A stretch of 64,000 nucleotides of DNA from an uncultured Gammaproteobacteria bacterium (GCA_964635715.1 CAZWNZ010000002.1:10100-74099); one strand, 5' to 3'; numbered from the stretch's first letter, positions 2,893 to 50,725 are shown. Made by a program: numbers and translations. The notes: a model not told the origin generated them from the letters alone.

Positions 2893-3477
2893 ATGATTAA
2901 AGCGAAAATATTTTCCAAAAGTGAAAAGATTTGTCTTATATCTGTTTTTCTGGTTTTAGTTGCCATTGCTGTCCCCAATTATATTGTCAGTTTGAGAAGA
3001 GCTCGTGATCAAGTAAGGCGCGATGATCTTGGCGCAGTCCTTCACTCAGTGGGAGAATATTATTCGGATTTTGGGTCCTTTCCATTATCTGCCCCTGACG
3101 GAAACATTATGGCATGTTTAAAAGATGGCGATGTCCCCTACCGGGGTGAAAAAGGACAGTGGATCATCAATCATATTTCCTGTTTTTGGGGAGTAAACGC
3201 TTTTGAAAATCCCGTTACAAAGACTGATTATATGGCCATTCTTCCCCGCGACCCACATTGGCAAGAAGGTGCCTCATATTTGTATATAAGTGATGGTGTG
3301 CGATGTCAGATATTTGCACACATGGAAGGAGATGATGAAGCTGAAGTAGACCCGAATGTTATTTCGAGAAACTTAATGTGCGGTAGCTATATATGCAATG
3401 TAGGTAGATCGTATAATTGTGATGTGAAGAAAAGCATAGAAACATGTGCGGAAGAAGCAGAGGCCGCTAAAAAGTAG
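2893..3477 (+). CDS. Atypical pilin-like protein (hydrophobic N-terminal helix, no canonical G-F-T-L-I-E motif)
   Basis: N-terminal segment LISVFLVLVAIAVPNYIVSLRRARDQVRRDDL resembles a mature pilin alpha1 helix but lacks the prepilin cleavage motif. Several Cys in the C-terminal half. Embedded in the pilin gene array. Confidence 0.4.
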   Translation: MIKAKIFSKSEKICLISVFLVLVAIAVPNYIVSLRRARDQVRRDDLGAVLHSVGEYYSDFGSFPLSAPDGNIMACLKDGDVPYRGEKGQWIINHISCFWGVNAFENPVTKTDYMAILPRDPHWQEGASYLYISDGVRCQIFAHMEGDDEAEVDPNVISRNLMCGSYICNVGRSYNCDVKKSIETCAEEAEAAKK

Positions 3478-24997: not shown

Positions 24998-25197
24998 AAA
25001 ATTACAAATTCTAAATGCTAAAATCTAAATTTAGTTTACATGAAGACGGGTCAAATTAGAAGATCCGTGGTTCCACTTCAATTTCCCTCGATTTCTCTCA
25101 GGACTCTTTGAGACTTCTTTCTACTCCGTAGTTGGTGAGTCTATTTCAACGTAGAAATGGTTTAACACTCATAATTTAAACTTTTACTAAATCAAAG

Positions 25198-27009
25198 TCA
25201 ATGTTTGGCTAGTTTAGCGGCTTTTCTTGCTTCAACTTCGTCCAGAATTACTTTTCTGATACGAACTGATTTTGGAGTTATCTCGACTAGCTCCGTATCA
25301 TCAATGTACTCCAATGCTTCCTCAAGTCCCATTCTGTGAGGAGCATTAAAATGCTCCATACAACCGTCTCCCTTACTTCTCATGTTACTTAGTTTCTTTT
25401 CCTTACAGGCATTGACTCTCAAGTCTCCTGCCCTACAACCTTGTCCAATAACTTGGCCTTTGTATATTTTTTCTGCGGGTCCAACAAAAAATTCTCCCTG
25501 ATCCTGAACCTGTGTCATCCCATAAAGTCTCGTTTCACCTGTTTCGTAGGCAACTAAACTTCCACGATCACGCTCGCGGGTAAACCCATCATCTGGTAAA
25601 AATTCATAGAAAGCTGCGTTCATTATTCCCAAGCCTTTGGTGTCGGTTATAAATTCACTTCTAAAACCAATAAGTTCTTTTGTGGCGACAGTAAACTCGA
25701 CATATGTAATCCCTTCTGTTGTTTCCAGATTGTCCATTTTGGCATGTCTTTGACCCATTTTTTGAATAACAATTCCGGAATATTCTTCGGGAACTTCAAC
25801 ATATACTTTTTCAAAAGGCGTCATTGTTTTTCCGTCTTCAATGTGAGTAATAACATGGGGGCGACTAACTGCAAATTCATAGCCCTCGCGCCTAATGCGC
25901 TCGATAAGTATGGCCAAATGAAGTTCTCCTCTGCCGGAAACAGTCCAAGTTCCGTCCGAATTATCCTCAACTTTTAAAGCAACATCGGTATCAAGCTCTT
26001 TATAAAGACGGGCTCTAATCTGACTACTGGTTTTGAATTCTCCCTCTTTTCCTCCAAAAGGAGAAGAGTTAACCATAAAAATCATTTTAACTGTGGGCTG
26101 CTCAATCTCGAGAAGAGGTAAAGCAATTGGCGTAATAGGATCGGCTATCGTTTCCCCAATATTGATATCGAGTATTCCGGTAACAGCCACAAGATCTCCC
26201 GCCATGGCCTCTGATTCTTCAATTTTCCCCAAACCCTTAAAAGTTGAAAGCGAAGTAATTTTGCACTTTTTAATTTGCCCATCGCGGTTTATATGAGCGA
26301 TATCTTGACCGTTTACTATTTTTCCGGAATGGATTTTGCCGATAGAAATTCTACCTTTATAGTTGTCGTAGCCAATGTTGCTGACAAGCATTTGCAATGG
26401 CTTTTGGTCATTAATTATTGGTTTAGGAATATATTCTAAAATGGCATCAAAAATTGGGCAAATGTCGGTCATTTTTTCTAATTCAGGTTCAAGCCCTGCT
26501 TTGCCGTCGCGTCCTGAGGCGTAAACTGTCGGGAAAAGGGCGGTTTCTTCGTTTGCACCAAGTTCACAGAAAAGATCAAAAGTTTTGCCTTGCACCCATT
26601 CAGGTCTGGCCCCTTTTTTATCAATCTTATTTACAATGACAATAATCTTAAGTCCCAATTTAAGAGCTTCTCTTAATACAAATCGAGTTTGAGGCATTGG
26701 GCCTTCCTTTGCATCAACTAATAAAAGAGCTCCATCAGCCATAGAAAGAACACGTTCTACTTCCCCGCCAAAATCAGCATGGCCTGGAGTATCAATAATA
26801 TTTATCTTTACGCCTTTCCATTCAACTGAAGCATTTTTGGAAAAAATAGTAATTCCACGCTCACGCTCCAGTTCGTTACTGTCAAGAATAGTATCTTGCT
26901 CGGCAACTTCCTTTTTCATTTCGGTGTGGCTTTGACGCAAAAGAGCGTCGACCAGAGTTGTTTTACCGTGGTCAACGTGAGCAATAATAGCAACATTTCG
27001 TATTTCCAT
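25198..27009 (-). CDS. typA: Translational GTPase TypA/BipA
   Basis: [18 protein letters not shown]1 motif, EF-G-like domains, and a BipA C-terminal domain. Confidence 0.9.
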
Positions 27010-29911: not shown

Positions 29912-29995
29912 GTTTTGAATTACCCGCACACTTCAGATATAATTGCAATGTAGTTTACGGACACTTACATCGCTTTGGATGAAGCGGTAGTATAC

Positions 29996-30069: not shown

Positions 30070-30134
30070 CTCGCTTCGCTCGTTTCCGCTTCGGTTCTCG
30101 ATAGTGCTAGATAGGGAATTGGTGTTGTGCACAC

Positions 30135-30152
30135 GAGTTCCTTAGCGTCCAC
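30135..30152 (+). repeat. Partial copy of the tRNA-Val(GAC) 3' end
   Basis: GAGTTCCTTAGCGTCCAC versus the tRNA 3' end GAGTCCCTTAGCGTCCAC (17/18), 83 bp downstream. A 5'-end-like copy (TACGGACACTTA) lies at ~29958-29969. Confidence 0.6.
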
Positions 30153-35878: not shown

Positions 35879-36400
35879 TTATATATCAAAATCCAAAGGT
35901 AGTGTGTCGATTTTATTGACAAAGAAAGACACGTTTTTTCCCCAGGTTTTTGATGGAGGAGCATAAACACGGGCTATTTCAGAAATAGAATCTACTCCCC
36001 TGTCAAAATACTTTGTTTTAAGCACGCTTGAGACATGAGAAATAGAGTTTTCCCAGGATGTAAAAGTATATTCTCCATTTGACCATCCATAGGCATTATA
36101 TGAATCATTAGGAATGTGTTTTCCGAATGTTGATTCCACACCTGCAATAGCAGGAATAAGTCTGTAATCGAGGTTGTTGTCATCCGCATAGGTAACAAAC
36201 TCTTCAGCATACTCGGCCAAAGGCGAGTTGTATTTTAATAAAAATTTTCTCAAATTTTCCACACGATAGTCAAAGCTTTCATTGTCATTTAAAGTATTTA
36301 ATACTGCTGATTGCTCGGCAATGGTTTGTGCACGCAAATCTTTCGCGCATGAAAAAACAAGCACGATAACAAATAGTAATGTAAGAATAATTTTTCTCAT
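35879..36400 (-). CDS. Secreted lysozyme-like / lytic-transglycosylase-like protein (paralog 1)
   Basis: Signal/TM N-terminus (MRKIILTLLFVIVLVF) and an RLIPAIAGVESTFGK...NAYGW motif (catalytic Glu-Ser as in SLT/GH23-like folds). Paralogous to 36569-37204. Confidence 0.45.
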   Translation of the reverse strand: MRKIILTLLFVIVLVFSCAKDLRAQTIAEQSAVLNTLNDNESFDYRVENLRKFLLKYNSPLAEYAEEFVTYADDNNLDYRLIPAIAGVESTFGKHIPNDSYNAYGWSNGEYTFTSWENSISHVSSVLKTKYFDRGVDSISEIARVYAPPSKTWGKNVSFFVNKIDTLPLDFDI

Positions 36401-36414
36401 AGTTATTTTATTTA

Positions 36415-36449
36415 GTAAAAAAGAAGGGGGATACCTTTCGGTACCCCCC
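36415..36449 (-). terminator. Hairpin plus U-run between the two lysozyme-like paralogs
   Basis: Minus strand GGGGGGTACCGAAAGGTATCCCCC followed by TTCTTTTTT. A TTGACA-N17-TATAGT promoter-like element lies upstream on the minus strand at ~36500-36530. Confidence 0.4.
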
Positions 36450-36568
36450 AAATATAATCCCAACGCCGAGATCATGTTTCCATGCCTAAGCCTCGGAATG
36501 TGTAAGTACTATAGCATAGTACTACAGGATTGTCAAGCTTATAGATAGATAATCTATAGTTAATGAAG

Positions 36569-37204
36569 TTATTGCATATCTTGCATAAAAGCACTTACGC
36601 CGTTGGCCCAGGAACCATTGCTCAAAGGAGTGTATTTGGACATAATTTCTTCAATAGTTGAATAACCTTTATTTAAATATTCTTCTCTTAGACCGTAACT
36701 AACGGTTTCTATGCCTTCACTAAATGACTCAAAACCAAGGGTTCCTTTGCTGTGTATTCCCCACCCCCAACAATTATACGAATCTACAGGAATAATCTTA
36801 CACAAGTTACTTTCTTGCTGAGCAATAGCTGTTACAAGACGAAAATCAATTGAATACTTGTCAGCAGTTTCGACAATAAATTCAGCATAAGGTACAAGTG
36901 GTGAGTTGTATCTTTCCAGATACTGCTTGACTATTTGAGGTCTGGCATCCGCCGATTCGATTGAAGAAGACACACTTGGAATATTAGAAGGAAGTGAGGC
37001 GTAAACACTGATTCCTGATTTGGGTGAAACTACAAGATTTGTTGTATTAAATTTCTTCTCCAAGACATCGTTTTTCTCCAAAGAAAAAAGCGAAAAAAGA
37101 CTAACACCTATGGTTAACGGAGTAATTGCAAAAAAAACTGCTATAAGAACAATGTTTTTCCAAAAACCAAAATCTTCTTGCCCAATTTGTGAGTACCCTT
37201 TCAT
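36569..37204 (-). CDS. Secreted lysozyme-like / lytic-transglycosylase-like protein (paralog 2)
   Basis: N-terminal TM, then NSPLVPYAEFIVETADKYSIDFRLVTAIAQQESNLCK...NCWGWGI, which parallels paralog 1 (AIAQQES motif). Confidence 0.45.
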   Translation of the reverse strand: MKGYSQIGQEDFGFWKNIVLIAVFFAITPLTIGVSLFSLFSLEKNDVLEKKFNTTNLVVSPKSGISVYASLPSNIPSVSSSIESADARPQIVKQYLERYNSPLVPYAEFIVETADKYSIDFRLVTAIAQQESNLCKIIPVDSYNCWGWGIHSKGTLGFESFSEGIETVSYGLREEYLNKGYSTIEEIMSKYTPLSNGSWANGVSAFMQDMQ

Positions 37205-37284
37205 CTAATCAGGATGACACGAAATAGGAGACGAAGTCAAGTTTGTGAGCCATTGTCAAACCCGATCCGGTGCAAACGCAAGTG

Positions 37285-37356
37285 AGCGGCGGAGCGGATT
37301 TGAACCGCCGACCTTCTCCTTGGCAAGGAGACATTCTACCACTGAACTACCGCCGC
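37285..37356 (-). tRNA. tRNA-Gly (anticodon GCC)
   Basis: GCGGCGG-TA-GTTC-AGTGGTA-GAAT-G-TCTCC-TTGCCAA-GGAGA-AGGTC-GGCGG-TTCAAAT-CCGCT-CCGCCGC-T. Perfect acceptor stem and U73. Confidence 0.85.
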
Positions 37357-37398
37357 AAGCATTTATGCGAGCAAAGTCTTTCGGTGGCCAAGCTTTGC

Positions 37399-37420
37399 TT
37401 ACCACTGAACTACCGCCGCA
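37399..37420 (-). repeat. Partial copy of the tRNA-Gly(GCC) 5' end (22 nt)
   Basis: Minus strand TGCGGCGGTAGTTCAGTGGTAA sits 43 nt upstream of the intact tRNA, followed by an unrelated GCAAAG...CTTTGC hairpin. No T-arm follows. Confidence 0.6.
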
Positions 37421-37513
37421 AACAACCAATTGACAGACTCAATTTTACACTAGCTTTAAAAAAAACTCTACTCCACTGTTTGATATTTTTATTTGTAATG
37501 AAATTTAACTATA

Positions 37514-38857
37514 ATGAAATTAAATATGAAGAAAATTACAGAAATCGCAACACCACCTCCGAAGGATTTAGATCTGGAAGAAGCACTCCTTCAGGAGAAC
37601 TTACTTTTGAAAAATTCTGCGGTTCCAATTTTAACCGTTTCAGCAACCTTCAGAAAAGAACTGGCAGATAAATATCATAGTGAGATACACAGCTCGTCTC
37701 CAGATGTTGTTTTCAGCAGGGCACATTATTCCATGGCTGAAGCCGTACGTTATATGGCTGAGGAAATGAAGTTGAAGGCCCAAATGTCAGACCCAACAAA
37801 CTATGTAAGTGTAAAAAACTGGAAAAATGTAGAGTTTGTTGAGACAAGTGGGCAAATGGTTGCTAGGATCAAACTACTGAAATGGCTAAAAGATAAAGTT
37901 GATACATTTGTGAGAGGAAAACTCCCTGTTGCCGAAGCCATTCAGGAGCCTTTAGATTATTTGACTAGTGAGATTGTAAAACCAGTAGTATCCTTACATT
38001 ATGAGGTTGGAAACATATTGGCAAAGAATGGAAAAAAAGTTGTTCAAGTCGTAACCGATCCCCATGTCCGCCCTCAGTATTTAGATTGTTTACCCTCCGA
38101 CAATATTACATATGCTTTATTTGATGAAGAAACAAAAATGGATTTTGTGGCTGAGTCCAAACGTCAAAATAAAACGCTCGGAGAAAATCAGTTGATAGTT
38201 ACCGGCCCTCCGGTGGATCCTAGAATATGTAGGGTTGGAATGAACAAAAAGGTCATGAAAAAAGAAGAACCTGTCAATTTGGCAATCTGCACGGGTGGCC
38301 TTGGAACGAATTTATCTGAAATAAGAAAAGCATTGGATATACTTTCCCCTCTTCTTAAACCGCCCGAGAAAATAAGACTTTTTCTTTATGCGGGTACCCA
38401 TAAAGATTTTCGTTACTTTTTTGAAGAATTTGCCGAAAAACAAAATATTCGAGTTGGTAATTTGGATGATGAAACTGCGAGGATAAGAATTCTTTGTGAA
38501 GACTCAATTATTGATGCAAACAACAACCTTATTAAATATATGTTCCCCTGGGCTCATGGCGTTATGACTAAACCTTCAGGAGATATGGCATATGATGCGG
38601 CTGCAGCCGGGTGTTTTATGTTTTTCCTTCAGCCGTGGGGTGAATGGGAAGAAAATATCCAGAAAAGGTTTGCTAAAATGGAGATAGGTTTTGATATCGA
38701 TTTAGATAACGATGTAAAGTTTTTATTGTCAGATTGGTCTAGTAATCCGAAATTAATTCAGGCATTGGAAAATGCTCACAATTTGCCAAAACTATTCAGA
38801 GAAGGAACGAAAAATATTGTTAATCTTCAACAAAAAATTTTGAAGGAAGAATACTAA
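37514..38857 (+). CDS. GT-B glycosyltransferase, MGDG-synthase/UgtP-like (GT28 family)
   Basis: C-terminal VMTKPSGDMAYDAAAAGCFMFFLQPWGEWEENIQ parallels the UgtP/MGDG synthase ITKPGG...G.QE..NA motif. A Gly-rich ICTGGLGTN segment is in the N-terminal half. Confidence 0.45.
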   Translation: MKLNMKKITEIATPPPKDLDLEEALLQENLLLKNSAVPILTVSATFRKELADKYHSEIHSSSPDVVFSRAHYSMAEAVRYMAEEMKLKAQMSDPTNYVSVKNWKNVEFVETSGQMVARIKLLKWLKDKVDTFVRGKLPVAEAIQEPLDYLTSEIVKPVVSLHYEVGNILAKNGKKVVQVVTDPHVRPQYLDCLPSDNITYALFDEETKMDFVAESKRQNKTLGENQLIVTGPPVDPRICRVGMNKKVMKKEEPVNLAICTGGLGTNLSEIRKALDILSPLLKPPEKIRLFLYAGTHKDFRYFFEEFAEKQNIRVGNLDDETARIRILCEDSIIDANNNLIKYMFPWAHGVMTKPSGDMAYDAAAAGCFMFFLQPWGEWEENIQKRFAKMEIGFDIDLDNDVKFLLSDWSSNPKLIQALENAHNLPKLFREGTKNIVNLQQKILKEEY

Positions 38858-38881
38858 AGTGCCACGTAGCTTTAACGTAGT

Positions 38882-38957
38882 GGTGCTGAGAGTGTGAGTC
38901 GAACACACATTTGACGCTCTTCAGGCGCCCGCCGTGACCACCTTGGCTATCTCAGCG
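38882..38957 (-). tRNA. tRNA-Phe (anticodon GAA), CCA encoded
   Basis: GCTGAGA-TA-GCC...GGC-G-GGCGC-CTGAAGA-GCGTC-AAAT-GTGTG-TTCGACT-CACAC-TCTCAGC-A-CCA. The D-arm is atypical (3-bp stem, long loop). Confidence 0.65.
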
Positions 38958-39114
38958 CGAATAATCGTGAGCGATGAGAAAAGCTTTGCTTATCTCATCG
39001 CGTCGAAATGGATTTCGCTTTTAAGTTTATCGCATTAGCTTAAACTTTTCCGCTCCATCATTTCTCCTCTCAAAATTACAAAAGTAATTTTGTAATAAAC
39101 ACAATAAAAACTTG

Positions 39115-39370: not shown

Positions 39371-39429
39371 AATTATATCAAATTTATGACCTTAGACTGC
39401 AACGATTCGACCAAGGATATGATTTCTTG

Positions 39430-39501
39430 TGACCTTGGGAAGAATCGAACTTCCATCTCATCCTTAGAAGGGATTTGCTCTATCCGTTGAGCTACAAGGC
39501 C
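39430..39501 (-). tRNA. tRNA-Arg (anticodon TCT)
   Basis: GGCCTTG-TA-GCTC-AACGGATA-GAGC-A-AATCC-CTTCTAA-GGATG-AGAT-GGAAG-TTCGATT-CTTCC-CAAGGTC-A. Confidence 0.75.
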
Positions 39502-39542
39502 AAGTGTAATAAGGCATTGGAGCCAACCGACAAGGTATTACC

Positions 39543-39564
39543 TTATCCGTTGAGCTACAAGGCC
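39543..39564 (-). repeat. Partial copy of the tRNA-Arg(TCT) 5' end (~22-24 nt), no T-arm
   Basis: Minus strand GGCCTTGTAGCTCAACGGATAA lies 42 nt upstream of the intact tRNA. A weaker 3'-end-like fragment (tgaccttagactgcaacgattcgaccaagg) is at ~39386-39420. Confidence 0.55.
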
Positions 39565-45506: not shown

Positions 45507-45524
45507 CTATCCCGCTCTGAACGA

Positions 45525-45603
45525 AGTGAAGAGTGGGAATGAACGCAGCGATTATCCCGCTCCAAGTCATCGAGGAGCAAGGGAATGAGCGCAGCGATTA
45601 TCC
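45525..45603. repeat. Two ~33-nt direct repeats (46-bp period) downstream of tRNA-Gly(TCC)
   Basis: GGGAATGAACGCAGCGATTATCCCGCTCCAAGT and GGGAATGAGCGCAGCGATTATCCTACTCCAAGT. Both contain the word TTATCCCGCT/TTATCCTACT, which resembles the tRNA-Gly 3' end (CTATCCCGCT). Confidence 0.5.
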
Positions 45604-45620
45604 TACTCCAAGTTTATATG

Positions 45621-50212: not shown

Positions 50213-50270
50213 CTTGCAGGGTCGGACCCTGCAAGGTGTATATAGTATATATAGTGTATTAGTATTTTTG
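50213..50270 (+). repeat. Palindrome plus AT-rich/T-run element that shares ~29 nt with the pilD coding sequence
   Basis: CTTGCAGGGTCGGACCCTGCAAG palindrome (50213-50235), then gtgtatatagtat...tagtattttt. 50220-50248 matches pilD 2388-2416 (ggtcCgaccctAcaaggtgtatatagtat) at 27/29 positions. Confidence 0.5.
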
Positions 50271-50279
50271 GGGTATTGG

Positions 50280-50333
50280 GGTGGTCGACGCGAGTCGAAC
50301 GCGCAAACCCCCCGCCCTGGCGGGGTGCTCTAA
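50280..50333 (-). other. 3' half of a split tRNA-like element (variable, T-arm, acceptor 3' strand, C73), preceded by a palindromic direct repeat
   Basis: Minus strand TTAGAGCACCCCGCCAGGGCGGGG-GGTTT-GCGCG-TTCGACT-CGCGT-CGACCAC-C. The acceptor 3' strand is perfectly complementary to the 5' half at 50684-50725. Confidence 0.55.
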
Positions 50334-50575
50334 CTTAGACCTAATAATTTTTTGAAAGCGTTTCCTCCTTTATATGATTTAATCAGATATTCTCTTTTAG
50401 AGGCTAATTGTCTAGATTCAAACTCTTCCGAATAAATCAGTTTATATGGTCCTTTGTTTCTTGTAGAGATATTCTTACCATGGTTATGTTCAATTAATCT
50501 ACGTTGTATGTCTGAAGTTGACCCAATATAATATCTACCATTTTTAATACTCTGAAGAATATATACATAAAACAT
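50330..50575 (-). CDS. Small GIY-YIG nuclease-superfamily protein (YhbQ/UPF0213-like)
   Basis: MFYVYILQSIKNGRYYIGSTSDIQRRLIEHNHGK...KGPYKLIYSEEFESRQLASKREYLIKSYKGGN shows GIY...YIG, R, E and N core residues. The ORF-track N-terminal extension is a translation of tRNA-His. Confidence 0.7.
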   Translation of the reverse strand: MFYVYILQSIKNGRYYIGSTSDIQRRLIEHNHGKNISTRNKGPYKLIYSEEFESRQLASKREYLIKSYKGGNAFKKLLGLS

Positions 50576-50585
50576 ATTTGGTGTG

Positions 50586-50659
50586 GGTGGGTGAGCGGAT
50601 TCGAACCGCCAACCTCCTGCTCCACAGGCAGGCGCTCTAACCATTGAGCTACACCCACC
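50586..50659 (-). tRNA. tRNA-His (anticodon GTG) with encoded G-1
   Basis: G-GTGGGTG-TA-GCTC-AATGGTTA-GAGC-G-CCTGC-CTGTGGA-GCAGG-AGGTT-GGCGG-TTCGAAT-CCGCT-CACCCAC-C. G-1:C73 is His-specific. Confidence 0.85.
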
Positions 50660-50683
50660 AAATAAGTATTACGAAGCAACCAC

Positions 50684-50725
50684 CCCGCCATGGCGGGGTG
50701 CTCTAACCATTGAGCTACGACCACC
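50684..50725 (-). other. 5' half of a split tRNA-like element (G-1, acceptor 5' strand, D-arm) ending in the palindromic direct repeat
   Basis: Minus strand G-GTGGTCG-TA-GCTC-AATGGTTA-GAGC-A-CCCCGCCATGGCGGGG. The D-arm is nearly identical to that of tRNA-His. No T-arm follows. Confidence 0.55.

What the first reader, a model, noticed from the sequence alone, without database searches (positions are those of the whole stretch)
37357..37425. 22-nt duplicate of the tRNA-Gly(GCC) 5' end upstream of the gene, fused to a non-tRNA hairpin
Minus strand GCGGCGGTAGTTCAGTGGTA is repeated exactly 43 nt upstream of the intact tRNA-Gly and continues into a GCAAAG-N16-CTTTGC hairpin rather than a tRNA body. 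Here the 5' end is duplicated, whereas att sites usually duplicate 3' ends. This is the second of four tRNA genes in the window with adjacent self-fragments, which points to a genome-wide process (tRNA-targeted recombination or decayed duplications).
Basis: seen in the sequence. Interest (0 to 1): 0.5.

Follow-up and report, generated by a model that had tools for sequence, protein, structure and literature searches.

The report
Self-copy hairpin in tRNA-Gly leader
The repeat is real: the first 20 bases of a glycine tRNA gene are copied just upstream, where they probably pair with a degenerate inverted copy to form a hairpin in the tRNA's leader; this module is conserved in related uncultured (Patescibacteria) bacteria and recurs at other tRNA genes, I found no description of it, and its benefit is unknown.

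Summary
tRNA-Gly(GCC) positions 1-20 are repeated exactly 43 nt upstream, with none expected by chance. It is not an att remnant or a decaying duplicate. It is the 5' arm of a roughly 53-nt imperfect hairpin: copy, TAAGC-AAA-GCTT apex, degenerate inverted copy. A 10-nt linker and the intact tRNA follow, all downstream of a conserved -10 box.

The module is near-identical in three other lineages, once in front of tRNA-Gly(CCC), although neutral sites between the closest pair are near saturation. One 82% relative lacks it at the syntenic site.

The same design, with the same 63-nt period, precedes tRNA-Arg(TCT). A short version with the same apex precedes tRNA-Phe. The apex recurs before tRNA-Asp and tRNA-His in relatives.

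In silico, removing the copy lets the inverted copy pair with the real tRNA 5' strand.

tRNA-His shows another mechanism: a tRNA plus GIY-YIG nuclease cassette sits inside an older, split tRNA-His.

The best reading is a heritable direct-inverted-direct duplication of the tRNA 5' end, transcribed as a leader hairpin and removed by RNase P. Origin and function are inferred. For Gly the inverted repeat is statistically weak and shows no covariation.

The parts
37442..37447 (-). TAAAAT, a -10-like box preceded by TG, 22 nt upstream of the 5' copy. It is the presumed promoter of the tRNA-Gly transcript.
   Evidence: The surrounding sequence GTAGAGTTTTT...GTGTAAAATTG.GT.TGT is conserved in the window, L036 and L032. 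L041 and L042 also have a -10 box 16-23 nt upstream of their copy. The consensus scan found no full -35/-10 pair, so this is a reading of the sequence and not a tool call.
37400..37419 (-). Exact direct copy of tRNA-Gly(GCC) positions 1-20, forming the 5' arm of the leader hairpin.
37390..37401 (-). Apex motif TAAGC-AAA-GCTT: the last two bases of the copy, AGC, a 3-nt loop, and the first four bases of the inverted copy.
   Evidence: The motif TAAGC-NNN-GCTT lies 25-38 nt upstream of tRNA-Gly and tRNA-Phe in the window, and of Gly-CCC, Thr-CGT and Asp in L041/L043. A TAAGCATAGCT apex (no final T, so outside the pattern) precedes tRNA-His in L102.
37367..37393 (-). Degenerate inverted copy ('anti-copy') GCTTGGCCACCGAAAGACTTTGCTCGC, forming the 3' arm of the hairpin.
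   Evidence: RNAalifold pairs it with copy positions 1-23: 20 pairs including 2 G-U. 98.8% of cells are paired in 4 lineages, but 18 of 20 pairs are invariant. Sequence-level inverted-repeat test P=0.09. Fold z-score -2.1.
37357..37366 (-). AU-rich linker ATAAATGCTT between the hairpin and tRNA +1.
   Evidence: It is the most variable part among the 4 lineages: ATAAATGCTT, ATAAATGCTC, ATTAAATACTC.
37284..37356 (-). Intact tRNA-Gly(GCC).
   Evidence: ARAGORN; Rfam tRNA 71.2 bits.
39502..39564 (-). The same architecture upstream of tRNA-Arg(TCT) (39429-39501): copy 1-21(24) at 39541-39564, loop TAATA at 39536-39540, inverted copy at 39513-39535, linker TTATTACACTT at 39502-39512. The period is 63 nt.
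   Evidence: (I1). Hairpin -26.3 kcal/mol, z -5.4. Inverted repeat P<2e-4.
38957..39001 (-). Short version upstream of tRNA-Phe (38881-38956): hairpin GCGATGAGA-TAAGCAAAGCTT-TTCTCATCGC at 38971-39001, with arms that are a drifted acceptor-stem mimic, then a 14-nt linker.
   Evidence: z -5.95. Inverted repeat P<2e-4. L032 has an orthologous module with a different apex.
50280..50725 (-). A different class, given for contrast: a split older tRNA-His. The old 5' part is at 50676-50725 and the old 3' part at 50280-50334, sharing a 32-nt direct repeat. They flank a 17-nt linker, an intact new tRNA-His (50585-50658) and a GIY-YIG ORF (50330-50575).
   Evidence: Orthologous loci L107 and L102.

Best explanation
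The 22-nt repeat is one arm of a heritable hairpin module in the transcribed 5' leader of tRNA-Gly(GCC). The layout, 5' to 3', is: promoter; about 15 nt of leader; a direct copy of tRNA positions 1-20(23); a TAAGC-AAA-GCTT apex; a degenerate inverted copy of those positions; a 10-nt AU-rich linker; the intact tRNA. This is a direct-inverted-direct arrangement of the tRNA's 5' end.

Inferred origin: a fold-back or template-switch rearrangement, or break repair, at the 5' end of the tRNA gene. It is old enough to be shared by several lineages.

Inferred working: the copy and the inverted copy are transcribed first and pair with each other. This keeps the inverted copy from pairing with the identical 5' strand of the real tRNA. 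The tRNA then folds, and RNase P removes the whole leader at +1. The direct copy is kept by selection because it masks the inverted copy. Why the inverted copy is itself conserved is open. It may be a processing or stability element, or a competing-helix switch.

Shown: the anatomy, the conservation, the recurrence at other tRNAs, and the computed folding effect. Inferred: transcription, the mechanism of origin, and the function.
For: Anatomy and chance.

Hairpin: in the RNAalifold consensus the copy pairs with the spacer over 20 pairs. 98.8% of cells are paired in 4 lineages, against 29-44% when partners are slid.

Conservation: the window and L036 are 46% identical at roughly four-fold degenerate sites, yet the copy is 19/20 and the spacer 36/37 identical. 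The module is also in L041/L043, in front of tRNA-Gly(CCC) with another promoter and context. It is in L042 too, a relative at 64-75% amino-acid identity. Flanks outside the module are not alignable.

A -10 box lies upstream of the copy in every lineage.

Same design: Arg-TCT has the same 63-nt period. Phe has a short version. The shared apex lies before Asp in L043; a near-identical apex, TAAGCATAGCT, lies before His in L102.

Folding: deleting the copy drops the acceptor-stem probability from 0.97 to 0.19 (Arg) and from 0.95 to 0.03 (Phe).

No integrase, no 3' remnant within +-4 kb, and the spacer is unique.
Against: For Gly itself the inverted repeat is weak. The alignment test gives P=0.09 and the fold z-score is -2.1. 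18 of 20 pairs never vary, so there is no covariation support.

At equilibrium the full Gly precursor is predicted to adopt the swapped fold, in which the copy pairs with the tRNA 3' strand. Correct folding therefore depends on an assumed co-transcriptional order.

The masking argument explains conservation of the copy but not of the inverted copy.

Polarity is ambiguous. L032 (82% relative) lacks the module at the syntenic site. This could be loss by recombination between the 20-nt repeats, or the ancestral state with later spread.

A constant apex at four different tRNAs is not expected from independent fold-back events. It hints at a common element or enzyme.

There are only four distinct Gly sequences and no expression data.
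Confidence: 0.5

Rival explanations
1. It is the remnant of an older resident tRNA-Gly gene. A new tRNA copy, perhaps with a homing-endonuclease gene that was later lost, was installed next to or inside the old gene. The old gene then shrank to its 5' part plus a hairpin.
For: Exactly this is seen at tRNA-His. Old 5' and 3' parts with their own compensatory acceptor stem (GTGGTCG/CGACCAC) flank a new tRNA-His plus a GIY-YIG ORF. The arrangement is conserved in L107. In L102 the old 5' part is replaced by a mini-hairpin with the TAAGCATAGCT apex. tRNA-Asp in L043 has both a leader mini-hairpin and a GIY-YIG gene downstream. Breakpoints recur in the D-loop at about positions 18-21. L029 has nested halves of tRNA-Thr.
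Against: There is no GIY-YIG gene or 3' remnant near Gly or Arg. The downstream flank of Gly is homologous to that of L032. The copy is identical to the present tRNA rather than to a diverged allele. In Arg the 3' arm is complementary to the D-arm region, which no tRNA 3' part would be.
Confidence: 0.2
2. It is a REP-like or miniature mobile hairpin element with a conserved TAAGC-NNN-GCTT core. A Y1 (RAYT / IS200-like) transposase or another nuclease spreads it to sites after a 'TA' in the 5' part of tRNA genes, with arms templated by the target.
For: The same apex follows a copy ending in TA at Gly and Phe in the window and at Asp in L043. Near-identical apexes follow a TA-ending copy at Gly-CCC in L041 and at His in L102. 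A Y1_Tnp gene flanked by palindromes lies next to the tRNA-His/GIY-YIG unit in L102, and directly after tRNA-Thr in L015 and L016. The long form of the Gly module carries an extra roughly 37-nt hairpin flanked by TAAGC/CAAGC. Its core motif recurs in the spacer of the Arg-TCT duplication of L042.
Against: There is no Y1_Tnp in the window. The spacers of Gly, Arg and His share nothing beyond the apex and occur once each. Known HUH transposition makes no target duplication. Apart from the tRNA-linked copies, the apex pattern occurs at chance level. In viral contigs the apex extended by GGCCAC also occurs at chance level.
Confidence: 0.15
3. It is a selected cis-regulatory RNA switch. The inverted copy can pair either with the upstream copy (tRNA folds and is processed) or with the real tRNA 5' strand (tRNA is trapped). 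This gates maturation in response to some factor.
For: Both arms are invariant across lineages that are saturated at neutral sites. The specific bulges of the 3' arm are conserved. The two folds are computed to be close in energy, and the copy controls the outcome. Engineered leader-sequestering RNase P riboswitches show that the principle works (PMC7897497, found).
Against: No ligand or factor is known. There is no covariation. One close relative does without the module. The Phe arms drift with compensation, which fits a plain hairpin better than a switch tied to the tRNA sequence. There is no Rfam match.
Confidence: 0.2
4. It is an attL/attR-type scar of an integrase-borne element in the tRNA gene, or a decaying tandem tRNA duplicate.
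For: Partial tRNA copies next to intact genes are the usual signature of such events. Classical-looking 3'-half copies exist in relatives, for example L013 Thr positions 35-74 lying 119 nt downstream.
Against: Only 43 nt lie between the repeats. The 5' end is the part duplicated. Neighbouring ORFs have no integrase domain. Identity ends sharply at position 20 rather than decaying. The spacer is inverted, not direct. The module is conserved across species.
Confidence: 0.03

Closest known systems
Partial tRNA gene copies left by integrative elements (att sites in tRNA genes)
   Same: A fragment of a tRNA gene lies in direct repeat next to the intact gene.
   Different: Those duplicate the 3' part (anticodon-loop or T-loop crossover) and bracket kilobases that include an integrase. 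Here the 5' 20 nt are duplicated, 43 nt away, with no integrase, with an inverted copy in between, and conserved across species. This comparison rests on my own knowledge of the family, plus PMC9897764 for fragments in archaea.
Tandem inversion duplications / quasi-palindrome template-switch rearrangements (direct-inverted-direct structures described in Salmonella and E. coli genetics)
   Same: The order is copy, inverted copy, copy, with short junction palindromes. The linker contains GCAT-AA-ATGC.
   Different: Those are large, unstable and selected in the laboratory. This one is about 23 nt, fixed, and conserved. The mechanism is inferred, not shown. The comparison is from my own knowledge.
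REP/REPIN palindromes and their RAYT (Y1) transposases
   Same: Both are short imperfect intergenic hairpins with a conserved core. A Y1_Tnp gene with flanking palindromes sits beside a tRNA unit in relatives.
   Different: REPs are near-identical multi-copy sequences. Here only the roughly 12-nt apex is shared and the arms match each adjacent tRNA. There is no RAYT in the window.
Free-standing GIY-YIG homing endonuclease SegB in the phage T4 tRNA gene cluster (PMC2330249)
   Same: A GIY-YIG gene lies next to tRNA genes, and tRNA genes serve as targets and cargo. This is relevant to the tRNA-His locus of the window.
   Different: That system is in a phage. No split resident tRNA or leader hairpin is described there. 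There is no nuclease at the Gly locus.
E. coli tyrT distal repeats, each carrying the last 19 nt of tRNA-Tyr, and plastid trnF pseudogene arrays
   Same: Short pieces of a tRNA end are repeated beside the parent gene.
   Different: Those are 3'-side or tandem direct repeats without an inverted partner and without known cross-species constraint. The comparison is from my own knowledge.
Engineered RNase P riboswitches that sequester the pre-tRNA leader (PMC7897497)
   Same: A leader helix decides whether the acceptor stem and cleavage site are available.
   Different: Those are synthetic and ligand-controlled. Here no ligand is known and the effect is only computed.

Membership tests
Integrase att-site remnant in a tRNA gene | An integrase or mobile-element genes lie between or beside the repeats. 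| tested here: not met
   43 nt lie between the repeats. The neighbouring ORFs 36569-37204, 35879-36475 and 37514-38857 have no Pfam family.
Integrase att-site remnant in a tRNA gene | The duplicated segment is the 3' part of the tRNA, from the anticodon loop or T-loop to the end. | tested here: not met
   Positions 1-20 are duplicated. No 3' fragment lies within +-4 kb.
Decaying tandem tRNA duplicate (pseudogene) | Residual direct similarity runs along the whole upstream unit. | tested here: not met
   Identity is 20/20 and then stops. The rest aligns, weakly, in inverted orientation.
Structured cis-acting leader RNA | Sequence conservation exceeds the neutral expectation. | tested here: met
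   The spacer is 36/37 and the copy 19/20 identical, against 46% at roughly four-fold degenerate sites. The arms are invariant in 4 lineages. Recent transfer is not excluded.
Structured cis-acting leader RNA | Compensatory base-pair changes support the helix. | tested here: inconclusive
   In Gly there are 0 pairs with a change on both sides and one G-U to G-C change. The Phe arms differ between the window and L032 by a compensated 2-bp insertion.
Structured cis-acting leader RNA | It is transcribed with the tRNA. | not testable with these tools
   The only evidence is a conserved -10-like box upstream of the copy.
Any Rfam family | A match to a covariance model. | tested here: not met
   There is no hit over 37340-37470 at E<=10, and no hit there in the whole-window scan.
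REP/RAYT-type palindromic element | Many near-identical copies exist in the genome. | tested here: not met
   The spacer is unique in the window and in about 0.5 Mb of related loci. Only the 12-nt apex recurs, and it recurs upstream of tRNAs.
REP/RAYT-type palindromic element | A cognate Y1 transposase is present in the genome. | tested here: inconclusive
   None is found in the 64-kb window. One is present beside tRNA genes in relatives L102, L015 and L016. The rest of this genome was not available.
Homing-endonuclease-driven tRNA cassette (as at tRNA-His) | A nuclease gene adjoins the tRNA, and halves of an older tRNA flank the unit. | tested here: not met
   This is met at His. At Gly it is not met: tblastn with the GIY-YIG protein finds only the His copy in the window, and there is no 3' half.

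The most novel reading that the evidence does not exclude
Patescibacteria (Microgenomates) carry a previously undescribed class of tRNA-gene leader elements. Each is a hairpin whose 5' arm copies the 5' end of the tRNA and whose 3' arm is its complement, often around a conserved TAAGC-NNN-GCTT apex. Either these act as a conserved competing-helix 'pro-sequence' that gates acceptor-stem formation and RNase P processing, or they are target-templated selfish hairpins spread by the GIY-YIG or Y1 nucleases that sit beside tRNA genes in these genomes.
Probability: 0.25. Interest if true: 0.75.

Novelty: new variant of a known kind. Interest (0 to 1): 0.55.

Why it matters
tRNA genes are usually treated as simple promoter-gene units. 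Here several tRNA genes of a reduced-genome bacterium carry a leader that duplicates, and also complements, the tRNA's own 5' end. At least one such leader has been held almost unchanged while neutral sites saturated. If this reflects function, it would be a natural example of leader-controlled tRNA folding or processing in organisms whose RNA processing is poorly known. If it reflects selfish DNA, it points to nuclease-driven turnover of tRNA genes (GIY-YIG cassettes, Y1 transposases) as a force shaping small genomes. It also matters for annotation, because such fragments and split older tRNAs can be miscalled as tRNA genes or as att sites.

Tried and rejected
- A search for a 3' remnant of an older tRNA-Gly or tRNA-Arg within +-4 kb found none.
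- BLAST of the Gly, Arg and His spacers against the window and all fetched loci found no other copies beyond orthologues.
- Rfam at permissive thresholds gave no match, over the whole window and over 37340-37470.
- The consensus promoter/terminator scan of 37250-37530 found nothing. The -10 box is therefore read by eye.
- I tested for a general excess of upstream sequence complementary to tRNA positions 1-23, using RNAduplex on own against non-cognate pairs. The means were -15.1 and -14.6 kcal/mol, which is uninformative. The inverted-copy design is a minority feature, or this measure is too crude.
- A viral-contig scan for the apex plus GGCCAC gave 47 hits. I estimate that is about what chance would give, and none lies near a tRNA.
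- I tried to find more Gly-CCC loci through the neighbouring small HTH protein. It is conserved across the whole phylum, and the contigs fetched had no tRNA-Gly.
- A second contig of the L041 genome added nothing new.
- An exact-protein look-up of the 447-aa neighbour failed until the shorter start was used.
- An archaeal origin, suggested by DRG-type GTPase and TrmB hits, was dropped once relatives were named as Patescibacteria.
- An ectopic Cas1-type integration (repeat duplication plus a roughly 41-nt 'spacer') was considered. I dropped it because the spacer derives from the target itself and no protospacer or CRISPR context was seen.
- Literature searches found no description of such leaders.

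Full report
**Source and setting.** The window has 38% G+C and 15 tRNA genes. Homologues of the 447-aa protein next to tRNA-Gly come from Patescibacteria of the Microgenomates group. The best named relative is Candidatus Beckwithbacteria at 62% identity. An early hint of archaeal origin from Pfam hits was dropped.

**Observation.** On the minus strand the tRNA-Gly(GCC) gene runs 37356..37284. Its first 20 nt, GCGGCGGTAGTTCAGTGGTA, recur exactly at 37419..37400. That is 43 nt upstream, with a start-to-start period of 63 nt. No other match with up to 3 mismatches exists in the window, and none arose in 100 shuffles.

**Anatomy.** The 43 nt are not random filler. After the copy come AGC, a 3-nt loop, and then GCTTGGCCACCGAAAGACTTTGCTCGC. 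RNAalifold pairs this stretch with copy positions 1-23, giving 20 pairs with bulges and two G-U pairs. The leader alone folds this way at -21.2 kcal/mol. A 10-nt AU-rich linker, ATAAATGCTT, then leads into the tRNA. The locus therefore holds the tRNA's 5' end three times: direct, inverted, direct.

For Gly this reading is only moderately supported on its own:
- The fold z-score is -2.1.
- The inverted-repeat alignment test gives P=0.09.
- 18 of 20 pairs never vary among four lineages, so there is no covariation.

**The same design elsewhere in the window.** tRNA-Arg(TCT) has a copy of positions 1-21(24), a TAATA loop, a 23-nt inverted copy and an 11-nt linker, again with a 63-nt period. Here the hairpin is strong: -26.3 kcal/mol, z -5.4, inverted repeat P<2e-4. 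tRNA-Phe has a short version, GCGATGAGA-TAAGCAAAGCTT-TTCTCATCGC, followed by a 14-nt linker (z -5.95). The equal period at Gly and Arg follows from this common build.

**The apex motif.** TAAGC-NNN-GCTT follows a tRNA 5' copy ending in TA at several sites:
- Gly and Phe in the window.
- Gly(CCC) and Asp in L041/L043.
- His in L102, as TAAGCATAGCT without the final T.

The pattern also lies upstream of Thr(CGT) in L041/L043, but there no copy of that tRNA's own 5' end precedes it.

Of 17 occurrences of the pattern in 574 kb, 10 lie 25-38 nt upstream of a tRNA on the same strand (5 or 6 of these are non-redundant). The other 7 are at about my estimate of the chance level.

**Comparative evidence for Gly.**
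- L035 is the same genome from another assembly and carries the identical module.
- L036 has a neighbouring protein 88% identical. It carries the copy (19/20) and the last 37 nt of the spacer (36/37), plus an extra hairpin of about 36 nt inserted at the apex between GTAAGC repeats. Roughly four-fold degenerate sites of the adjacent gene are only 46% identical between these two genomes. The module is therefore far better conserved than neutral DNA.
- One metagenome scan with a spacer pattern found two more lineages. In L041/L043 the short form sits in front of tRNA-Gly(CCC), in a different context with a different promoter.
- L042 carries the long form in front of tRNA-Gly(GCC). L042 is 64-75% identical in amino acids and syntenic around tRNA-Arg.
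- In all of these, sequence outside the module is unalignable, and a -10 box lies 16-23 nt upstream of the copy.
- L032/L033, an 82% relative with conserved synteny, has the same promoter followed directly by tRNA-Gly, with no module.

Presence in the more distant L042 favours an old module that L032 lost. Recombination between the 20-nt repeats would restore exactly the L032 arrangement. Gain or lateral spread is not excluded. L032 does have the Phe module, with another apex and arms that differ from the window's by a compensated 2-bp insertion. It also shares a 9-nt 5' copy at Val-GAC with the window.

**Folding computation.** With the copy present, the acceptor stem of the real tRNA forms with probability 0.97 (Arg) and 0.95 (Phe). 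With the copy deleted and the inverted copy kept, these fall to 0.19 and 0.03, because the inverted copy pairs with the real 5' strand. For Gly, and for L032 Phe, the equilibrium minimum is a swapped fold in which the upstream copy pairs with the tRNA 3' strand. Correct folding would then rely on the order of transcription. This explains why the direct copy must stay identical to the tRNA. It does not explain why the inverted copy is conserved.

**Other classes of tRNA self-fragments.** tRNA-His is different.
- An older tRNA-His is split. Its 5' part (50676-50725) and 3' part (50280-50334) share a 32-nt repeat. They have their own compensatory acceptor stem, GTGGTCG/CGACCAC, against GTGGGTG/CACCCAC in the live gene.
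- Between the two parts lie a 17-nt linker, the intact tRNA-His and an 81-aa GIY-YIG ORF (Pfam E=3e-17).
- L107 has the same layout.
- In L102 the old 5' part is replaced by a mini-hairpin with the TAAGCATAGCT apex, and a Y1_Tnp gene flanked by palindromes lies alongside.

Relatives show further cases: a GIY-YIG gene after tRNA-Asp; nested tRNA-Thr halves in L029; an exact 54-nt copy of Arg-TCT positions 20-73 in L042; and 3'-half copies. Breakpoints cluster at +1, the D-loop (about 18-21), the anticodon loop and the 3' end.

**Enrichment.** Self-fragments are enriched overall. A self-match scoring 30 or more occurs in 5.0% of own flanks against 0.12% of non-cognate flanks. A tRNA's own first 7 nt recur upstream in 10 of 103 cases against 1.1% in controls.

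**Interpretation.** The finding is a real, heritable leader module. It is neither an att scar nor a decaying duplicate. I commit to a direct-inverted-direct duplication of the tRNA 5' end. It is transcribed from the upstream promoter, folds as a leader hairpin that masks the inverted copy, and is removed by RNase P. The origin (fold-back or template switching, or break repair at tRNA genes) and the function are inferred.

Three rivals remain open:
- A shrunken older tRNA left by a cassette replacement, as seen at His.
- A REP-like hairpin spread by a nuclease, which the shared apex suggests.
- A true competing-helix switch.

**Prior description.** No Rfam family matches. Searches of the paper library found no description of such leaders. 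The closest papers concern group I introns in Patescibacteria tRNA genes, tRNA gene fragments in archaea, and SegB in the T4 tRNA cluster.

Noticed in passing
window 50280-50725 (-): An older tRNA-His is split by a unit made of a 17-nt linker, an intact tRNA-His and an 81-aa GIY-YIG nuclease ORF. A 32-nt direct repeat covers the old D-stem 3' strand and a palindromic anticodon arm, CCCCGCCATGGCGGGG. The old halves keep their own compensatory acceptor stem. This looks like a homing tRNA+nuclease cassette.
   Followed up: yes
L102 2940-4110; L015 3031-3669; L016 6294-6965: A 227-aa Y1_Tnp (IS200/RAYT-like) gene lies next to the tRNA-His/GIY-YIG unit in L102, flanked by palindromes of the form CTTGTAAGGAGAGACCCTTCAAG. 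The same gene lies directly downstream of tRNA-Thr(TGT) in L015 and L016.
   Followed up: partly
window 50213-50236 (-); L013 about 3360-3385: A perfect palindrome, CCTTGCAGGGTCCGACCCTGCAAG, lies just after the old tRNA-His 3' part. A near-identical CTTTAAGGGTCCGACCCTTAAAG follows a tRNA-Thr 3'-half copy in L013. This may be a REP-like family.
   Followed up: no
L029 1950-2400: Nested tRNA-Thr(TGT): 5' half A, 5' half B, an intact tRNA C, 3' half B, 3' half A. The halves pair with each other through their own compensatory stems. The leader and trailer of each inner unit are complementary. Breaks fall in the anticodon loop.
   Followed up: partly
L042 1952-2122: tRNA-Arg(TCT) is followed by a 42-nt spacer and an exact 54-nt copy of positions 20-73. 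The first copy is followed by CCA and the second is not. The spacer shares the motif TTCTCG[CT]A[GA]ACT[CT]GAAG with the extra hairpin of the long-form Gly module in L036 and L042.
   Followed up: partly
L012 16965-17085; L017 14570-14694; L020 17550-17670: Upstream of tRNA-Thr(GGT) lies a partial copy of the tRNA (positions 1-11 and 13-25) interrupted by about 60 nt. Those 60 nt form two hairpins with compensatory changes among the three species. In L017 and L020 the promoter or leader is duplicated as well.
   Followed up: partly
window 45518-45610 (+): The trailer of tRNA-Gly(TCC) carries two units of about 46 nt, each ending in the tRNA's last 10 nt (TATCCCGCTC, TATCCTACTC). The first is preceded by its complement, GAGTGGGAAT. 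This mirrors the leader design on the 3' side.
   Followed up: partly
window 29959-29967 and 30134-30152 (+): tRNA-Val(GAC) has a 9-nt 5' copy, GGACACTTA, 29 nt upstream, also present in L032. It also has a 19-nt copy of its 3' end (18/19) 63 nt downstream, with similar trailing sequence after both copies.
   Followed up: partly
L043 1150-1620: tRNA-Asp has a leader hairpin, GGGGTCGTAAGCAAAGCTT...AAGCAAAGCTTGCGTCCCC, with two apex motifs. An 80-aa GIY-YIG ORF starts 82 nt downstream of the tRNA.
   Followed up: partly
window 25039-25257 (-): A weak T-box leader match: 27.3 bits against a gathering score of 93, E=0.04.
   Followed up: no
window 39371-39382 (-): A TATAAT box ends only 1 nt before position +1 of tRNA-Leu(CAG), inside the Arg-Leu-Leu-Val tRNA cluster. 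This is too close for a normal leader.
   Followed up: no
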